9,261 nucleotides of DNA, from the IMG/VR virus record IMGVR_UViG_2657245500_000015; one strand, written 5' to 3'. Origin of the DNA: a virus. Its lineage: Duplodnaviria; Heunggongvirae; Uroviricota; Caudoviricetes. The notes under the pieces are model-generated. The model searched no databases. It worked only from the letters and a program-made list of their open reading frames with translations, and was not told the DNA's origin. Positions 1 through 9,021 of the stretch are shown piece by piece (position 1 is the first letter of the stretch; each line of letters begins with the position of its first letter). The translations under genes were made by a program, and so were the position numbers.

Positions 1-74
1 TTATCGTGAGAGTAATTCATCGGCACGTTAAATCATATCAGGCGTAATACCACAACCCTTAAGTTAGCGCTTAT

Positions 75-95
75 GGGGGGAAGTCCCCCTTTTTA
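75..95 (+). terminator. Putative rho-independent terminator
   Basis: G/C stem 76-80 (GGGGG) pairs with 85-89 (CCCCC), loop AAGT, followed by TTTTT at 90-94. Stop codons in all three + frames within 1-45 are consistent with a + strand gene ending just left of or at the window start. Confidence 0.4.
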
Positions 96-435
96 ACGTC
101 ATTTTATGCAGGGAATGTGTAGTTCTACACAGATTCTATGCAGTATCGGTATAGTCCCTTTTTATTCTAACTTATTGAAATATATAAAGAATCTGCAAAG
201 CCTCTTTTCAGGGAGCTATGCAGGGTGTTAGTCGTCCCTCTCCAGACACTACATATAGTGCTATATACAGGGCTATATAACGATATATAGATGTTTGGTC
301 ACATGGTGTAACTATCAAGAAACTTAATAGTTTCCTATGTGAAAGTTATTTCTGAGGGTGGGTAAGTGCTCAGGAGATTTCATGAGGATAATTCTTATCC
401 GAATCATCACGTAGAACACGCTTAAGCACAGATAC

Positions 436-458
436 AAAAAAGCCCCCATGAAGGAGGC
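436..458 (-). terminator. Putative rho-independent terminator of the recombinase gene
   Basis: On the minus strand the RNA reads GCCUCC-UUCAU-GGGGGC (6-bp stem with one G-U pair) followed by UUUUUU; it lies 27 nt downstream of the recombinase stop at 485. Confidence 0.55.
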
Positions 459-484
459 TATGAATCTATGCAGGTGATGAGAAA

Positions 485-1051
485 TTATTCAGCTTTAATA
501 CGCTGTACAGTTGACTTGGCAACGTTGAATTGAGCGGCTACTTTAGCGATTGAACTACCAGCAGCAAGAGCAGCTTTAATACCTTCTCTGTCAACCGCTT
601 TACCGTTACCCCTTCCAACTACACGACCAGCAGCTTTAGCAGCTTCATAACCTTCTCTTTGACGCTCAAGCATCATTTTACGTTCAGCTTCAGCCACTGC
701 TGAAAAGATTGTGAGAATCATCTTAGACGTGGGGTTATCGTCACCAGTTATCAGACCTTCTTTGTGAAAGTGAACCTTGATACCTTTCTGTGAAAGTTTA
801 TCCACCAGCGTTAATACATCCACGGTAGAGCGCCCTAAACGTGACAGGTCGTGTACATGGATAGTGTCACCTTCACGAACATAATCGAGCATAGCCTTTA
901 GTTGTGGACGGTCTGTATTCTTCCCAGATGCTTTATCAGTAAATACCTTATCCAGTACGACCCCTTCAAGTTGACGGTCTGTAATCTGCTGGATTGATGA
1001 AACTCGAACATAACCAATGTTAGCCATAATATACTCATTTGCCTTACTCAT
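485..1051 (-). CDS. Serine recombinase, resolvase/invertase family
   Basis: N-terminus MANIGYVRVSSIQQ matches the catalytic-serine motif of Hin/Gin/gamma-delta resolvase; also FTDKASG, DLSRLGRS, ILTIFSAVAEAER E-helix, and a C-terminal HTH (SSIAKVAAQFNVAKSTVQRI). The likely true start is the internal Met at 1027 (MANIGY...), since the ATG at 1051 has no SD. Confidence 0.9.
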   Translation of the reverse strand: MSKANEYIMANIGYVRVSSIQQITDRQLEGVVLDKVFTDKASGKNTDRPQLKAMLDYVREGDTIHVHDLSRLGRSTVDVLTLVDKLSQKGIKVHFHKEGLITGDDNPTSKMILTIFSAVAEAERKMMLERQREGYEAAKAAGRVVGRGNGKAVDREGIKAALAAGSSIAKVAAQFNVAKSTVQRIKAE

Positions 1052-1071
1052 TTGATGGATTGAGTATAACG

Positions 1072-1153
1072 TACCGATAAAGTGTTTTACAAGGCTAATC
1101 GGTATGGTTTTTACAGGGGGTTAGCTATACCTTTTTAGTATGCTATATCGGTA
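1072..1153. promoter_or_regulatory. Candidate recombinase binding (res/crossover-like) region upstream of the recombinase gene
   Basis: Inverted pair TACCGAT (1072-1078) and ATCGGTA (1098-1104), a further ATCGGTA at 1147-1153, and direct GTTTTACAAGG / GGTTTTTACAGG motifs. Its position just 5' of the recombinase gene is typical for res sites. Not validated. Confidence 0.25.
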
Positions 1154-1519
1154 TGCCTAAGAGATGGAGATGCCTTTACAGCAACTCACATAGAAAGTCA
1201 ATAGATATTTGGCTTTTTTGCAAAGGGGGTCACATAGCTGGTGTGACGGGTACTTAGCAGGTATAGACCTGTGATAGATATTTTCGAAGATTCGGGGAAG
1301 ATGAGATTCAAAGAGGGCTAGTCATTTTTTATAAAAATTTTCAGACTCTGAAAAGTTACTGTACAGATTTTATACAGATATCTTTAAAGTATCTGTAAAG
1401 ACTTTTAAGATAAGAGATAGATATCCCAGAAAGGATATCCGTTTAGAAAACCTGTTAAGTATCTCTTAAAAGAGAGTAAACCTTGTCAATAGTGATTGCA
1501 ATAAAAATTTTTATTTCTT

Positions 1520-2182
1520 ATGTCAATTGAGCATATTTTAATCGGGAAACATCATGGGGGTTCTGATTACTGGAGAACTCCATTTCTTATATTCCGCAAT
1601 TTGCACCGTGAGTTTAGTTTCAGTCTGGATGGTGCTGCAACTGAGCATGACACGCTGTTACCACGATTCACCAATGATATTCACAATCAGTCATGGGATG
1701 GTGAACGGGTGTTCTGTAACCCACCATACAGCGACACTAAAACATTCCTCCTAAAAGCCGCTGAAGCGGATTTAGCGGTATTCCTGATACCGTACCGACC
1801 CCACACCACATACTGGCTTAAGCACCTCTTCACAAACCCGCTTTGCCATGAAATCCGTATTCTTCATCGTGCAGTTAAATACCTTCCACCAGCAGGGCAT
1901 AACGGGCTTGCTATTAGGTCACCGTTTGCAAGTGCAATTGTCATCTTTAAAACTGAGCCACGCAGACATGAAATTACGCAGATGATTTGCTGTGCTGATA
2001 CATTGCTACCGTTAACCATCATTAACAGAGGAGGCTTAAGAGGAAGACCCACCATTTACCCACCTGAGACGCTCGACAGCTTCATAAAGCTATACAGGCA
2101 AGGAAAACCCATTAAGTGCATTGCAGATGCTCTCAGAATGCCTCTGAGCACGTCATACAGGATTGCGCAAAGGTTGAGCTAA
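1520..2182 (+). CDS. Dam-family DNA N6-adenine methyltransferase with C-terminal invertase-type HTH domain
   Basis: WRTP, FSLDGAATEHDTLLPRF, VFCNPPYSD and VFLIPYRP motifs are typical of phage (T1-type) Dam methyltransferases. The last ~55 aa (NRGGLRGRPT...LYRQGKPIKCIADALRMPLSTSYRIAQRL) match the GRP plus HTH C-terminal domain of Hin/Gin-type serine recombinases. No obvious SD before the ATG at 1520. Confidence 0.8.
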   Translation: MSIEHILIGKHHGGSDYWRTPFLIFRNLHREFSFSLDGAATEHDTLLPRFTNDIHNQSWDGERVFCNPPYSDTKTFLLKAAEADLAVFLIPYRPHTTYWLKHLFTNPLCHEIRILHRAVKYLPPAGHNGLAIRSPFASAIVIFKTEPRRHEITQMICCADTLLPLTIINRGGLRGRPTIYPPETLDSFIKLYRQGKPIKCIADALRMPLSTSYRIAQRLS

Positions 2183-2548: not shown

Positions 2549-3487
2549 ATGTCTAAATATAACCCAAATCAGTTTTATAAATTTGATGTGCGAATCTCTC
2601 AGCTTTCAGAAGAAATTAACGCAGCAGCAAGATTAATTTATATGGTCATGGTTCATAGCTGTGATTTCTATGAAGAGAAGTACAAAGCATATTCACCAAG
2701 TATTGACCATCTAGCTTATATGGCTGGTGTTTCAAAGAGAACGGCAATCAGAGCTATTGAGACACTTGAGAAACACGGTTTAATTCAGGTGCAAAAGAAT
2801 CAGGGTCGTCAAAGCACTTATCGTGTATTCACACTGGATGATAAGCCGGAATTACTTGTAAGACCTACATCACAGGAAGTTGCAGCCTCAGTAAGACAAA
2901 ATGACACCACTACCAGTGACAAAATGTCATCAGTACCAGTGACAAAATGTCATGGGGGTAGTGACAAAATGTCACCCGTGTTAGATAAGTTATTAGATAA
3001 AACATTAGATAATAATATTATAGATAAGAGTAAAGATACTGAACTTGATGTTGGTATCAATGAAGATGATTTTCTTTCTTTGGATGAATTAAATGATTTT
3101 CTCTCTATGAATGAATCTGACCTTGATAGTGAAGCTACTAAAGAGACCTCTAAAACATCTGACTTAGAGGAAGATAAAATCTCTGATGTGAATGAAGTTA
3201 GTGACCAGCAAGATACACCTTGCCGCCTCGAATCAACTGATGATGAATTACCGGATGTTGACCTTGATGATGAAGAAGACCCTGAAGAGGAATTGAAACG
3301 TGAACAGCGTAAAGCAGAAATTAAAGAAAGATTCAGAAAGGCAAAGCTAAAGAACAGGATTGATGAACTTGATGACTTTGATGATAGTGACGATGATTTT
3401 ACTTTTACACCAAAAAAGAAAACTCACACCGAGCCAAAGAAAGAAAAAGTTAAAGTCAGACGTGTTTATGCTGGAGGAATGTTTTAA
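2549..3487 (+). CDS. Replication initiator protein (N-terminal HTH DNA-binding domain, acidic C-terminal tail)
   Basis: N-terminal region (SIDHLAYMAGVSKRTAIRAIETLEKHGLI) resembles HTH-type phage/plasmid replication initiators. Four iterons and an AT-rich tract lie inside the coding sequence, as in lambda O/ori. SD GAGG at 2534-2537. The C-terminal third is highly acidic low-complexity sequence. Confidence 0.8.
   Translation: MSKYNPNQFYKFDVRISQLSEEINAAARLIYMVMVHSCDFYEEKYKAYSPSIDHLAYMAGVSKRTAIRAIETLEKHGLIQVQKNQGRQSTYRVFTLDDKPELLVRPTSQEVAASVRQNDTTTSDKMSSVPVTKCHGGSDKMSPVLDKLLDKTLDNNIIDKSKDTELDVGINEDDFLSLDELNDFLSMNESDLDSEATKETSKTSDLEEDKISDVNEVSDQQDTPCRLESTDDELPDVDLDDEEDPEEELKREQRKAEIKERFRKAKLKNRIDELDDFDDSDDDFTFTPKKKTHTEPKKEKVKVRRVYAGGMF
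2893..2975. repeat. Iteron array: four copies of the palindromic motif (a)GTGACAAAATGTCA(t) at ~23-bp spacing
   Basis: GACAAAATG cores at 2895-2903 (degenerate copy AGACAAAATGACA), 2918-2926, 2941-2949 and 2963-2971. Each full site has dyad symmetry (TGACA-AAA-TGTCA). The 23/23/22-bp period is about two helical turns. Confidence 0.7.
2981..3029. other. AT-rich tract with repeated TTAGATAA (putative DNA unwinding element of the origin)
   Basis: TTAGATAA at 2981-2988, 2993-3000 and 3005-3012 (12-bp period), and TAGATAAG at 3022-3029, immediately downstream of the iterons. Same order (iterons then AT-rich) as lambda ori. Confidence 0.5.
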
Positions 3488-6821: not shown

Positions 6822-6863
6822 GGGAGAGATTATCGAGTGATATCGGTAGTTTCTCCCTTTTTT
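6822..6863 (+). terminator. Putative terminator hairpin with T-run
   Basis: GGGAGA (6822-6827) pairs with TCTCCC (6852-6857), followed by TTTTTT at 6858-6863. The loop is long (24 nt), so stability is uncertain. Confidence 0.4.
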
Positions 6864-6954: not shown

Positions 6955-9021
6955 ATGGCACAATTTAAAGTTGATGATTTTCTGATTGAGCTAGGTTTTA
7001 ACTCTCAGAGGGTTTTAAAAGGTCTGGAAAAAGCCGAGAAACAAACGATGCAGGTAGCATCACGAATTGAGAAGCGATTGAATAAAGCTTTTAAAGTTAA
7101 CCCTACGCCTTTAAATGATTCTCTCAAGGTCATGGAAAGAAATGTCGATAAAACTGTTTCCAAGATTGAGCAGCGTCTTAAAAACACTAAAGCGTTTAAG
7201 ATTAAAACGGAAATTGAGGATACTTTAAAGCCACTTAGACAACCGAGACAGCCACGAATTAGCGGAAGCAGAGCAATTACAGCAGCGCATAGCGTGAATA
7301 TGAGCAAGCTTCGTGACTTTAATCCTATGCTTGAGAAGTATTTTAAAAGCCAGTATTACAGCTTAAGCAGTAAATCCAAGACACTTGGAAACGAAGCTTT
7401 TAATCGTGAGTTAGCAAAATTAAATCAATCTCTTCGTGAAACACTTTCTAAGTTTAACAAGACCACCAGCAAAAATAATCACAGTGAAAATGCTTCGAAT
7501 GGTCTGGATGTATTAGCTACGAGTGCAATCAAAGCAGGTACAGCCATTTATAGTTTTCAGACAGCCTTAGAAGCTTACAGGCGGATTATGGAGGTTGGTC
7601 TGAAAAAAGAAGCATCACAACGAGCGGCACAATTCGTTTTAGGTGATGAAGGTGCTAAACGAGCTACAGAATTTGTTAAGAATCTTGCTGATAGTAGTGG
7701 TGTAGACCAGATTGAAACATTAAGCAGTTTTGCTAAGTTTTCCGCTGGTGCTGGTGATATGAATGCAGACCAGAAAGAATCCTTATTTTCTAATGTGATT
7801 GGTACATCCAGATTAATGGGGCTAAGCACCGATGAAATTAACGGGATTTTAAAAGCTTTCGAGCAGATGGCATCTAAAGGAAAGATTCAGGCTGAAGAGC
7901 TACGCGGTCAATTAGGTGACAGAATGGCAGGTGCTTTTCAGTTATTTGCCAGAAGTCTTGGGATGACTACGGAAGAATTAGACAAGGCTATGAAAGACGG
8001 TAAGGTTCTTTCTAAAGATGTTCTCCCTAAAGTATCCGCTGAAATGGGAAAGATGATTGATAAAGCGGGAGGATGGGAAAAGATTATTAACTCTACTCAG
8101 ACGCAGTTAGGCCGCTTAAGTAATTCATGGAATAATAATTTGGCCTTAATGTTCGATGGTTCACAGGAAGGTTTAACAGACTTTACAAGGTCACTGACTA
8201 ATTTACTTAATTCACTGGGTGGTCAATCTAAAAATCTTGGTGAACATTTTGGCGACTTGATGAAAAGCATGTCAAACGGTATTGATGATTTAACCACGAT
8301 TAGCTACCGAGTGCAGGGATTCTTTGACAGAGTGACCCTTGCTTACAGAGAATTAAATGACACTCAAAAAGCTGTAGCTGATGGTATCGCAAATGGCCTG
8401 TTAAGTGCATTAAAGGGACTTGCTGGTATTGTCGCTGTAAGGTCTGGTATTGGTGCTGTAGGTGGTATCTGGAACTTAATTAGGGCTATTTCCACGCTTG
8501 GGAATGTAGCAAATACAGCAGCAGGAAGAATTAATTCACGTTCTGGTGGTGTTGAAAGTGGAAAAAGTAGGCTATCTGTAGCTGATGCAATTACCAGAGT
8601 AATGATTGTCGGTATGACAACTGATGTGATTAATGCCATTGTCAAACCGTTCTATGAACGTCAGATGAGTAAGTCAGATAATCCGATTGATAAAGTTGTA
8701 AGGTCAAAGGTGGAACCCACAGACCAGGCATTAACTGGTGACATGAACTCTTTAGCCGCTGTTTTATGGGCTATGGTTCATGGCAAATCAAAAGATGTTC
8801 CACAGTTTTCACCTGAAGCATTAAATAATCTAAAAGGTCGAGTGGAAACATTCACACAAGATTTAAAGGTTATCAAGCCGTCAGTAAATATTCAGCCTCA
8901 GACAATCAATATCACAACTCAGACGGTACTTGATGGAAAGGTTATTGATGAAAGAACCACATCGCATATTAATCGTATGCAGGAAGATACCTTGATTAGC
9001 TCAGCTTACCCAGAGGAATAA
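6955..9021 (+). CDS. Tape-measure-domain protein (phage tail tape measure-like), 688 aa
   Basis: The segment FEQMASKGKIQAEELRGQLGDRMAGAFQLFARSLGMTTEELDKAMKDGKVLSKDVLPKVSAEMGK matches the conserved tape-measure domain pattern (SKGK.Q.EEL..QL..R.PGA.Q..A...G....EL...M..GK.L...VLP). A Gly-rich hydrophobic segment (GLAGIVAVRSGIGAVGGIWNLI) is typical of tape-measure proteins. SD AAAGAGGTGA at 6936-6945. Confidence 0.85.
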   Translation: MAQFKVDDFLIELGFNSQRVLKGLEKAEKQTMQVASRIEKRLNKAFKVNPTPLNDSLKVMERNVDKTVSKIEQRLKNTKAFKIKTEIEDTLKPLRQPRQPRISGSRAITAAHSVNMSKLRDFNPMLEKYFKSQYYSLSSKSKTLGNEAFNRELAKLNQSLRETLSKFNKTTSKNNHSENASNGLDVLATSAIKAGTAIYSFQTALEAYRRIMEVGLKKEASQRAAQFVLGDEGAKRATEFVKNLADSSGVDQIETLSSFAKFSAGAGDMNADQKESLFSNVIGTSRLMGLSTDEINGILKAFEQMASKGKIQAEELRGQLGDRMAGAFQLFARSLGMTTEELDKAMKDGKVLSKDVLPKVSAEMGKMIDKAGGWEKIINSTQTQLGRLSNSWNNNLALMFDGSQEGLTDFTRSLTNLLNSLGGQSKNLGEHFGDLMKSMSNGIDDLTTISYRVQGFFDRVTLAYRELNDTQKAVADGIANGLLSALKGLAGIVAVRSGIGAVGGIWNLIRAISTLGNVANTAAGRINSRSGGVESGKSRLSVADAITRVMIVGMTTDVINAIVKPFYERQMSKSDNPIDKVVRSKVEPTDQALTGDMNSLAAVLWAMVHGKSKDVPQFSPEALNNLKGRVETFTQDLKVIKPSVNIQPQTINITTQTVLDGKVIDERTTSHINRMQEDTLISSAYPEE

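What the first reader, a model, noticed from the sequence alone, without database searches (positions are those of the whole stretch)
298..1248. GTCACA...TGTGAC palindromes on both sides of the recombinase gene, plus inverted ATCGGTA half-sites upstream
A dyad GGTCACAT-N-TGT(G/A)AC occurs about 170 bp downstream (298-312, 3-bp centre, one mismatch) and about 180 bp upstream (1229-1248, 7-bp centre, perfect) of the recombinase gene. They enclose a ~950-bp segment, similar in size to the Hin invertible segment that carries its own recombinase. Closer to the gene start, TACCGAT/ATCGGTA half-sites (1072-1104, 1147-1153) could form res-type subsites. The different centre spacing of the two dyads argues against them being a matched crossover pair, so they may be operators instead.
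Basis: inference. Interest (0 to 1): 0.4.

Follow-up and report, generated by a model that had tools for sequence, protein, structure and literature searches.

The report
Resolvase with its own res site
The recombinase is an ordinary Tn3-type resolvase whose binding sites are the TACCGAT repeats just upstream of its gene, while the GTCACA palindromes belong to the surrounding island DNA and do not mark an invertible segment.

Summary
The second dyad is 1228-1247, one base off.

The invertible-segment reading fails:
- Both dyads lie in the backbone of an E. coli chromosomal island, outside a variable slot (about 349-1190).
- In relatives that slot holds this recombinase, an unrelated resolvase, a non-coding filler, or nothing. 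The upstream dyad is kept in every case.
- A chimeric query for the inverted junction was not matched in any of 508 E. coli genomes.
- All 29 genomes carrying this recombinase are colinear through the upstream dyad.

The res suggestion holds:
- TACCGAT/ATCGGTA half-sites form a 28-bp site (1127-1154) and a 35-bp site (1071-1105). A weaker 24-bp site lies at 1044-1067. Spacing is close to Tn3/gamma-delta res.
- The recombinase promoter sits inside the two gene-proximal sites.
- Homologues 52-61% identical keep a distal 28-bp site plus longer gene-proximal sites, but with different half-site words.
- The protein is closest to Tn3/gamma-delta resolvases.

Most likely role (inferred): autoregulated multimer resolution of the excised, replicating island.

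The dyads are two of about a dozen short palindromes in palindrome-dense non-coding DNA. Their function is unknown. The island itself looks like an undescribed parasite of FelixO1-like phages.

The parts
1..72 (.). End of an IS421-type insertion sequence that cuts off the left tip of the island. The exact IS/island boundary lies somewhere in 72-97 and is ambiguous.
   Evidence: 1-77 is 100% identical to an IS-bearing record; 1-94/97 is 94-96% identical to IS421 in 916 plasmids; islands L085 and L087 share sequence with the window from about 73 onward without the IS.
145..151 (+). Stray ATCGGTA copy, probably not a functional partner site.
   Evidence: It is present in only 3 of 8 islands with this recombinase. 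It is also present in L085, which has the other recombinase. Its would-be left arm (CTACACAG) does not match the half-site word.
297..312 (+). Downstream dyad GGTCACATGGTGTAAC. It is an imperfect palindrome in island backbone, beyond the recombinase terminator.
   Evidence: One search shows the alleles in relatives: GGTCACATGGTATAAC, GCTCACATGGTGTAAC, GGTCACATAGAAAAC and GGTCACCATACGTTAC. None is a perfect dyad.
349..1190 (.). Variable accessory slot of the island. The recombinase-specific module (gene plus res) is about 466-1167.
   Evidence: The slot holds the same recombinase in L001, L086 and L087, an unrelated resolvase in L085, a roughly 390-bp filler in L002 and L084, and nothing in L083. 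Window and L085 share 349-465 and 1168 onward.
435..459 (-). Intrinsic terminator of the recombinase gene: AGCCTCCTTCATGGGGGCT followed by TTTTTTG.
   Evidence: It is shared by both resolvase module types.
485..1027 (-). Small serine recombinase of 180 aa from MANIGY. The ORF is open up to the ATG at 1051. It is resolvase type: N-terminal catalytic domain plus C-terminal HTH.
   Evidence: PF00239 at 4.5e-37 and HTH_7. Tn3 and gamma-delta resolvase at E 1e-30, Gin at 2e-24. Y6, R8, S10, R68 and R71 equivalents are invariant, and homologues start at MAN/MAH.
1044..1067 (.). Candidate res subsite III, TTACTCAT-N8-TTGAGTAT (core TACTCA-N10-TGAGTA), next to the gene. This assignment is tentative.
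   Evidence: The half-site word is only related to the main one (TACnnA). Homologues have direct rather than inverted repeats here.
1063..1092 (-). Sigma-70-like promoter of the recombinase: -35 TTGTAA at 1092-1087, 18-bp spacer, -10 TATACT at 1068-1063. It lies inside subsites II and III.
   Evidence: A GCCTTG/TTG-type -35 is kept in the centre of the equivalent site in homologues.
1071..1105 (.). res subsite II, GTACCGAT-N19-ATCGGTAT (35 bp, 7 of 8 symmetric).
   Evidence: The equivalent inverted repeat in L006-L008 is 31 bp and built from GTAGCGAT/ATCGCTAC.
1127..1154 (.). res subsite I, the likely crossover site: ATACCTTT-N12-ATCGGTAT (28 bp) with central AT at 1140-1141.
   Evidence: One search finds a 28-bp 8-12-8 inverted repeat in L004 (GTTGCAAT...ATTACAAC) and L006-L008 (GTAGCGAT...ATCGCTAC). 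These lie 133-155 bp upstream of the start codon, against about 100 bp in the window. Chance expectation is 0.08-0.18 per sequence.
1228..1247 (+). Upstream dyad GGTCACATAGCTGGTGTGAC, a perfect 6-bp palindrome in island backbone. Its function is unknown.
   Evidence: It is kept in 8 closely related islands whatever fills the slot. Diverged alleles (L088, L089, L090, L003) have different sequence here.
1381..1459 (+). Stretch of the Dam-HTH upstream region that is 82.5% identical to an intergenic region of FelixO1-like (Ounavirinae) phages. Context only.

Best explanation
The gene at 485-1027 (minus strand) encodes a Tn3/gamma-delta-type resolvase that comes with its own res site directly upstream, at 1044-1154.

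**The res site.** Recombinase dimers would bind three subsites of unequal spacing built from the word ATACCGAT:
- site I, 28 bp, farthest from the gene, with a central AT where the strands would be exchanged;
- site II, 35 bp;
- a weaker site III, 24 bp.

**Regulation.** The gene's promoter lies inside sites II and III, so binding should also repress the gene.

**Likely role.** The module sits in an accessory slot of an integrative island that encodes a replication-initiator-like protein and, in relatives, a large serine integrase. I infer that it resolves multimers of the excised, replicating island. It would do this by recombining two directly repeated res copies.

**The dyads.** The two GTCACA dyads are not part of this system. 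They belong to the palindrome-rich non-coding backbone on either side of the slot. They are most likely allele-specific protein-binding or hairpin motifs of the island, or relics of a short duplication.

**Shown versus inferred.** Shown: protein family, site architecture, its conservation in homologues with different words, the position of the dyads outside the cassette, and the absence of inversion in assemblies. Inferred: binding, autoregulation, the crossover point and the multimer-resolution role.
For: **Protein**
- Resolvase catalytic domain plus HTH_7.
- Best solved relatives are Tn3 and gamma-delta resolvases at E about 1e-30, ahead of Gin at 2e-24 and Sin.
- Catalytic residues are intact.

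**Sites**
- ATCGGTA occurs 5 times against 0.51 expected.
- Three copies lie in 1072-1153 and are present in all 8 islands with this recombinase.
- Geometry is I 28 bp, 21-bp linker, II 35 bp, 3 bp, III 24 bp, 111 bp in total. The Tn3 paper (PMC9943657) gives a 22-bp I-II linker, a site I spacer 3 bp longer than site III, a site II spacer 9 bp longer than site III, and about 120 bp overall.
- Homologues 52-61% identical keep a distal 28-bp 8-12-8 inverted repeat plus a 31-35-bp inverted repeat. Both are built from other words (GTAGCGAT, GTTGCAAT). Chance expectation for a 12-spacer repeat is 0.08-0.18 per region.
- The unrelated resolvase in L085 has its own TGTCTATA-type repeats.
- The promoter lies within sites II/III and a terminator follows the gene.
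- The unit swapped between the window and L085 is exactly gene plus res, about 466-1167.

**Dyads**
- The upstream dyad is retained with this recombinase, another recombinase, filler or nothing.
- No inverted junction was matched in 508 genomes.
- All 29 carriers are colinear through the upstream dyad.
- Both non-coding flanks are palindrome-dense: 8 against 1.5 expected and 14 against 2.0 expected, with no shuffle of 300 reaching these counts. The coding regions are not enriched.

**Island context**
- A replication-initiator-like protein is encoded at 2549-3487.
- The island occupies four different chromosomal sites. A gene annotated as a recombinase and long enough to be a large serine recombinase lies at an island end in L001 and L087.
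Against: - No binding or recombination data exist. Everything about function is inferred from sequence.
- Site III is weak. In the L006-L008 homologues the gene-proximal repeats are direct, not inverted.
- Site I in the window has only 6 of 8 symmetric positions.
- The Tn3 regulatory-interface residues (R2, R32, K54, E56) read A, K, Y, R here. Synapse architecture may therefore differ from Tn3.
- Most islands of this family lack any resolvase, so the function is dispensable.
- Island excision and replication have not been demonstrated.
- The strong resemblance between the two dyads is left without a positive explanation. So is a third GGTCACA dyad in the filler variant.
- Static assemblies cannot exclude rare inversion within a population.
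Confidence: 0.72

Rival explanations
1. One reading: the two GTCACA dyads are hix/gix-like crossover sites, and the recombinase inverts the roughly 930-bp segment that carries its own gene.
For: - The two dyads resemble each other far more than chance allows.
- They bracket the gene at similar distances.
- PHROGs labels the protein family 'DNA invertase'.
Against: - The dyads lie outside the cassette, and the upstream one persists without any recombinase or with an unrelated one.
- Centre spacing is 3 against 7 bp, and the two are direct copies of each other.
- They lack the ATACCGAT word that the recombinase's own sites use.
- No inverted junction was matched in 508 genomes, and all 29 carriers are colinear through the upstream dyad.
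- The downstream dyad is never perfect and differs between alleles.
- Diverged islands with the same recombinase have no such dyad and no second copy of their own allele.
- The protein is closer to resolvases than to Gin.
- No switchable gene adjoins the segment.
Confidence: 0.03
2. The dyads, together with a third GGTCACA dyad in the filler variant, are real binding sites or strand-specific hairpins. An island, helper-phage or host factor would recognise them, for example as operators or boundary elements of the accessory slot or of the nearby origin/regulatory region.
For: - The 16-base pattern is repeated: 2 copies against 0 expected.
- L002 and L084 carry three GGTCACA dyads within about 500 bp, all on the + strand.
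- The upstream dyad is invariant in 8 closely related islands.
- The region is dense in palindromes, as regulatory and origin regions are.
Against: - Spacers of 3, 6 and 7 bp do not fit one rigid dimer.
- The dyad is less conserved than its flanks in diverged alleles.
- RNAalifold finds no conserved hairpin.
- No island protein co-varies with the dyad. It is present in L087, which lacks the Dam-HTH gene, and in islands with and without recombinase.
- The motif is not enriched in a FelixO1-like phage genome: 9 copies against 10.8 expected, and no similar dyads.
- There are no further copies in the window.
Confidence: 0.17
3. The dyads have no function. They are products of a short local duplication or gene conversion in fast-evolving, palindrome-rich non-coding DNA.
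For: - The downstream copy is imperfect and polymorphic.
- The pair exists only in one allele group.
- The half-words are not enriched.
Against: - The upstream dyad is a perfect palindrome that stays invariant across closely related islands.
- Three dyads of the same word in the filler variant are unlikely by chance.
Confidence: 0.07
4. The recombinase-res module is a relic of a Tn3-family transposon rather than a working part of the island.
For: The closest solved relatives are transposon resolvases, and the res layout is Tn3-like.
Against: - No transposase or terminal inverted repeats appear in the window or in 12 related loci.
- The module has clean boundaries at gene plus res inside a fixed island slot.
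- A second, unrelated resolvase module occupies the same slot in about 82-109 genomes.
- The gene is intact, with its own promoter and terminator.
Confidence: 0.01

Closest known systems
Tn3 / gamma-delta resolvase with its res site
   Same: - A small serine recombinase of about 180 aa with a C-terminal HTH, and the best match among solved structures.
- res lies immediately upstream of the gene, with three subsites of unequal spacing, a 28-bp crossover site farthest from the gene, and a I-II linker of about 21-22 bp.
- The promoter is embedded in the accessory sites.
   Different: - No transposase or transposon ends are present. The module sits in an integrative phage-like island.
- The half-site word is ATACCGAT, not TGTCYNNTA.
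- Regulatory-interface residues are not conserved (A2, K32, Y54, R56). There is a 5-residue deletion after helix A, and D67 is replaced by S with an acidic residue two positions earlier.
- Sites II and III measure 35 and 24 bp, against 34 and 25 bp recalled from memory for Tn3.
Plasmid multimer-resolution serine recombinases (RP4/RK2 ParA, Sin, beta of pSM19035)
   Same: A stand-alone resolvase plus an adjacent res on a replicon, with no transposase. The presumed job is to convert multimers to monomers, with autoregulation through res.
   Different: - Sin and beta use two subsites plus a host bending protein. Here the layout looks three-subsite, as in Tn3.
- The host element is a chromosomally integrated island whose replication is only inferred.
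- Sequence similarity to Sin is weaker, E 4e-19.
Hin / Gin / Cin / Pin DNA invertases with hix/gix sites
   Same: The same protein superfamily and a similar size.
   Different: - The palindromes are not matched 26-bp sites and are not the recombinase's binding word.
- They are unlinked to the recombinase in relatives.
- No orientation variants exist in assemblies, and no switchable flagellin or tail-fibre gene adjoins the segment.

Membership tests
Tn3/gamma-delta-type resolvase-res systems | Small serine recombinase: N-terminal catalytic domain with the nucleophilic serine and conserved arginines, plus a C-terminal HTH | tested here: met
   PF00239 at 4.5e-37 and PF02796. Tn3 and gamma-delta resolvases at E about 1e-30 over the full length. 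Y6, R8, S10, R68 and R71 equivalents are invariant.
Tn3/gamma-delta-type resolvase-res systems | A res site next to the gene with three dimer-binding subsites of different spacing and the crossover site (28 bp) distal | tested here: met
   Sites at 1127-1154 (28 bp), 1071-1105 (35 bp) and 1044-1067 (24 bp, tentative). ATCGGTA is enriched tenfold. A distal 28-bp site plus a 31-35-bp site are kept with other words in homologues. Reference geometry from PMC9943657.
Tn3/gamma-delta-type resolvase-res systems | Recombinase promoter inside res, giving autoregulation | tested here: inconclusive
   A consensus promoter (TTGTAA-18-TATACT) lies inside sites II/III, and a TTG-type -35 is conserved in site II of homologues. 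Repression itself was not tested.
Tn3/gamma-delta-type resolvase-res systems | Regulatory (R / 2-3') interface residues R2, R32, K54, E56 | tested here: not met
   The alignment gives A, K, Y, R at these positions. PMC9943657 notes that related resolvases have different R-interface specificities, so this does not exclude a synaptosome.
Tn3/gamma-delta-type resolvase-res systems | Part of a Tn3-family transposon (tnpA and 38-bp terminal repeats) | tested here: not met
   No transposase domain is present in the window apart from the unrelated IS421 end. None is annotated in 12 related loci.
Tn3/gamma-delta-type resolvase-res systems | Resolution selectivity: recombines only directly repeated res sites in one supercoiled molecule | not testable with these tools
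   Needs an in vitro or in vivo recombination assay.
Hin/Gin-type DNA inversion systems | Two matched crossover sites in inverted orientation, bound by the recombinase, at the ends of the invertible segment | tested here: not met
   The dyads differ in centre length (3 against 7 bp), are direct copies of each other, lack the ATACCGAT word, and lie outside the cassette.
Hin/Gin-type DNA inversion systems | Both orientations found among genomes or reads | tested here: not met
   A chimeric inverted-junction query was covered to 80% or more in none of 508 genomes. All 29 carriers are colinear through the upstream dyad. Read data were not available.
Hin/Gin-type DNA inversion systems | A gene or promoter switched by the inversion (flagellin, tail fibre) | tested here: not met
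   The segment holds only the recombinase, its res, its promoter and its terminator. The flanks are non-coding.
Hin/Gin-type DNA inversion systems | Fis-dependent enhancer inside the recombinase gene | not tested
   No reliable sequence test was available.

The most novel reading that the evidence does not exclude
The GGTCACA dyads would be functional, strand-specific boundary or operator motifs of a previously undescribed E. coli island that parasitises virulent FelixO1-like phages. They would mark an accessory slot into which interchangeable resolvase-res modules are recruited. Those modules would monomerise replicated island DNA before packaging.
Probability: 0.12. Interest if true: 0.55.

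Novelty: new member of a known kind. Interest (0 to 1): 0.27.

Why it matters
For the finding itself, little changes. The work replaces a speculative phase-variation switch with a standard autoregulated resolvase-res module and fixes its parts to the base. That prevents a mis-annotation as "DNA invertase".

It adds a diverged res specificity (ATACCGAT) with natural sister specificities (GTAGCGAT, GTTGCAAT). These could be useful for hybrid-resolvase work.

The more interesting lead is the context. About 10% of complete E. coli genomes carry this island. It combines phage-derived tail genes, a FelixO1-like regulatory region and a slot that repeatedly acquires unrelated resolvases.

Tried and rejected
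- **145-151 as a partner crossover site.** It is 18 of 28 identical to site I. Rejected because it is absent from 5 of 8 islands with this recombinase, present with the other recombinase, and its second arm does not match.
- **ATCGGTA at 6842-6848.** It has no partner arm and is absent in L001.
- **Dyad as a conserved RNA hairpin or terminator.** RNAalifold gives no consensus hairpin across alleles. Folding of 1190-1400 is only marginal, z = -2.0. No U-tract follows the stem, and Rfam finds nothing.
- **Dyad as a helper-phage motif.** There is no phage match, and the motif is not enriched in a Mooglevirus genome.
- **Dyads as cassette recombination sites.** The cassette boundaries are 37-60 bp away from them.
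- **Precise deletion product between the dyads.** Every high-coverage hit is made of two joined pieces with DNA between them. The shortest is the "empty" L083 type.
- **Allele-matched second copies in diverged islands.** None found.
- **Searches that returned nothing.** The IMG/VR scan with the Dam-HTH protein found nothing. Near-identity searches in phages and plasmids matched only the IS421 end. NCBIfam gives no family above its cut-off. Literature searches found no description of the island.
Full report
**What is in the window**

- Positions 1 to about 72 are the end of an IS421-type element.
- The rest is part of a chromosomal island. Its backbone occurs in about 552 of 5426 complete E. 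coli genomes, always on chromosomes.
- In relatives the island sits at at least four sites: beside yciI, inside yecE/DUF72, in mdtG, and beside lafU.
- The window's genes are:
  - a small serine recombinase (485-1027, minus strand);
  - a Dam-like methyltransferase fused to a resolvase-type HTH (1520-2182);
  - a replication-initiator-like wHTH protein (2549-3487);
  - several orphan genes;
  - a tape measure protein (6955-9021).

**Checking the observation**

- Both dyads and all three TACCGAT/ATCGGTA half-sites are present as described. The second dyad is 1228-1247.
- The two dyads are direct copies of one another, GGTCACAT[AGCT]GGTGTRAC. That pattern occurs twice and never in 200 shuffles.
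- The hexamer and the 8-mer halves are not enriched on their own.
- ATCGGTA occurs five times against 0.51 expected.

**The dyads are not the recombinase's sites**

I aligned seven E. coli islands.

- They share a variable slot between about 349 (GTGAAAGTTA) and about 1168-1190 (GAAAGTCAATAG).
- The slot holds one of four things:
  - this recombinase (window, L001, L086, and also L087);
  - a different serine recombinase, 31% identical, with its own TGTCTATA-type repeats (L085);
  - a non-coding filler of about 390 bp (L002, L084);
  - nothing (L083).
- The upstream dyad is kept in all of them, with one single-base change.
- The downstream position reads GGTCACATGGTGTAAC, ..GGTATAAC, GCTCACATGG.., GGTCACATAGAAAAC or GGTCACCATACGTTAC. 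It is never a perfect dyad.
- Both dyads lie 37-60 bp outside the slot boundaries.
- The piece exchanged between the window and L085 is exactly gene plus upstream repeats, about 466-1167. The terminator at 435-459 is shared.
- In more diverged islands with the same recombinase (L088, L089, L090, Citrobacter L003) the upstream dyad position reads ACCACTTAGGCGTAGTGAC, GCTGCTTAGGCTTAGTGAC or GGTGCT(T/A)TAGCGAGAATGCACC. The flanks stay conserved.
- Those islands have no second copy of their own allele.

**Test for inversion**

- I built a chimeric 400-nt query representing the left junction after inversion between the dyad centres. It was covered to 80% or more in none of 508 matching genomes, and each genome matched only one half.
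- The normal arrangement (485-1500) is colinear through the upstream dyad in all 29 genomes that carry this recombinase.
- A query for the precise deletion product gave only two-piece matches with DNA in between.
- Assemblies cannot exclude rare events within a culture.

**The half-sites form a res site**

Reading toward the gene, the layout is:

| Element | Coordinates | Sequence | Length |
|---|---|---|---|
| Site I | 1154-1127 | ATACCGAT-N12-AAAGGTAT, central AT at 1140-1141 | 28 bp |
| Linker | | | 21 bp |
| Site II | 1105-1071 | ATACCGAT-N19-ATCGGTAC | 35 bp |
| Linker | | | 3 bp |
| Site III | 1067-1044 | ATACTCAA-N8-ATGAGTAA | 24 bp |

- The total is 111 bp.
- The Tn3 paper PMC9943657 gives a 22-bp I-II linker, a site I spacer 3 bp longer than site III, a site II spacer 9 bp longer than site III, and about 120 bp with three dimers. 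Here the spacer differences are 4 and 11 bp.
- A sigma-70-type promoter lies inside sites II/III: TTGTAA at 1092-1087, 18-bp spacer, TATACT at 1068-1063. An intrinsic terminator follows the gene.

The strongest evidence is comparative.

- Recombinases 52-61% identical in other Enterobacterales keep a distal 28-bp 8-12-8 inverted repeat and a 31-35-bp inverted repeat nearer the gene.
- These repeats are built from different words: GTAGCGAT/ATCGCTAC in L006-L008 and GTTGCAAT/ATTACAAC in L004.
- A conserved GCCTTG/-35 element sits in the centre of the proximal site.
- A 12-spacer 8-bp inverted repeat is expected 0.08-0.18 times per 230-bp region by chance.
- The three half-sites in 1072-1153 are present in all eight islands with this recombinase.
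- The extra copies at 145-151 and 6842-6848 are not conserved.

**The protein**

- The closest solved relatives are Tn3 and gamma-delta resolvases at E about 1e-30 over the full length. Gin scores 2e-24 and Sin 4e-19.
- Catalytic residues are conserved.
- D67 is replaced by S, with an acidic residue two positions earlier. This pattern alternates across the subfamily.
- The Tn3 regulatory-interface residues are not conserved.
- The MAN/MAH starts of homologues support the ATG at 1027 rather than the one at 1051.

**Mechanism**

*Shown:*
- a complete, apparently intact resolvase-res-promoter-terminator unit;
- a unit that behaves as one exchangeable module.

*Inferred:*
- Dimers bind the three subsites.
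- Two directly repeated res copies synapse, and strands are exchanged at the centre of site I.
- Binding at sites II/III represses the gene.

Only one res exists per island. Directly repeated copies would therefore arise in multimers of the excised, replicating island.

A second, unrelated resolvase module occupies the same slot in about 82-109 genomes. This suggests that the island recruits the function itself. Most islands lack a resolvase, so it is dispensable.

**What the dyads may be**

- Both non-coding flanks are dense in perfect short palindromes: 8 against 1.5 expected and 14 against 2.0 expected, with no shuffle of 300 reaching these counts. The recombinase and Dam genes are not enriched.
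- The dyads are therefore two of about a dozen palindromes in what is probably the island's regulatory, origin or packaging region.
- The filler variant has a third GGTCACA dyad, GGTCACAgaagttTGTGTC. All three are on the same strand, with spacers of 3, 6 and 7 bp. The motif family looks real, but it does not fit a rigid dimer site.
- I found no conserved hairpin, no Rfam hit and no co-varying island protein.
- The motif is not enriched in a FelixO1-like phage genome.
- Their function stays open.

**Context noticed along the way**

- Window 1381-1459, upstream of the Dam-HTH gene, is 82.5% identical to a divergent intergenic region of the Mooglevirus phage vB_EcoM_3HA14. The core of this stretch matches 244 Ounavirinae phages at 80-90% identity.
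- The island tape measure protein finds its best full-length matches in Felixounavirus tape measures, at 28-29% identity.
- The baseplate-like protein that follows it in relatives is about 76% identical to a protein of about 250 such phages.
- The island was not found in IMG/VR with a Dam-HTH protein query. Only its IS421 end matched the INPHARED phage set at near-identity.
- I found no paper describing the island.
- It looks like an undescribed parasite or satellite of virulent FelixO1-like phages.

**Verdict**

- The invertible-segment interpretation is not supported.
- The res interpretation is supported.
- The system is a new member of a known kind.

Noticed in passing
window 1381-1459; 6955-9021; L001:18225-19013: The island looks like a parasite or satellite of virulent FelixO1-like (Ounavirinae) phages. 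Window 1381-1459, upstream of the Dam-HTH gene, is 82.5% identical to an intergenic region of phage vB_EcoM_3HA14, and its core matches 244 such phages at 80-90%. The tape measure's best full-length matches are Felixounavirus tape measures (28-29% aa). The next gene in relatives is about 76% aa identical to a protein of about 250 such phages. I found no description in the held literature.
   Followed up: partly
L085:2857-3640, equivalent to window about 466-1167: A second, unrelated resolvase (31% aa identity) with its own TGTCTATA-type res occupies exactly the same slot. It shares the terminator and flanks. It is present in about 82-109 E. coli genomes, against about 29 for the window type.
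   Followed up: partly
window 98-484 and 1052-1519: Both non-coding flanks are strongly enriched in perfect short palindromes (8 against 1.5 expected, 14 against 2.0 expected). Examples are TTTTCAGAnTCTGAAAA at 1338-1354, GATATCCCAGAAAGGATATC at 1420-1439 and TGTGTAGTTCTACACA at 116-131. The region is probably regulatory, an origin or a packaging site.
   Followed up: partly
window 1520-2182: A Dam-like N6-adenine methyltransferase with an NPPY motif is fused to a C-terminal resolvase-type arm plus HTH_7 domain (RGRP...HTH). This is an unusual architecture with an unknown DNA target.
   Followed up: no
L002:6226-6608 and L084 equivalent: Recombinase-less islands carry a filler of about 390 bp with no annotated gene. 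It contains a third GGTCACA dyad (GGTCACAgaagttTGTGTC) on the same strand as the other two.
   Followed up: partly
window 1-97: An IS421-type end abuts the island and removes its left tip, the CCTGTTAAnnACAGG palindrome seen in relatives. Bases 73-97 are shared both with plasmid sequence that is contiguous with IS421 copies and with IS-free islands L085 and L087, so the exact junction is ambiguous. GGGGGGAAGTCCCCCTTTTT at 75-94 looks like an intrinsic terminator.
   Followed up: no
window 485-1027 (protein positions 65-67): In this resolvase subfamily the conserved acidic residue D67 alternates with S67 plus an acidic residue at position 65 (HDLSR against HSIDR). There is also a 5-residue deletion after helix A relative to gamma-delta resolvase.
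   Followed up: no
L087:3543-5582, L089:3533-4915, L090:3541-5109: Related islands have 1.4-2 kb stretches with no annotated gene upstream of the recombinase. The island family occupies at least four chromosomal sites (yciI side, yecE, mdtG, lafU), and some genomes hold 2-4 copies.
   Followed up: no
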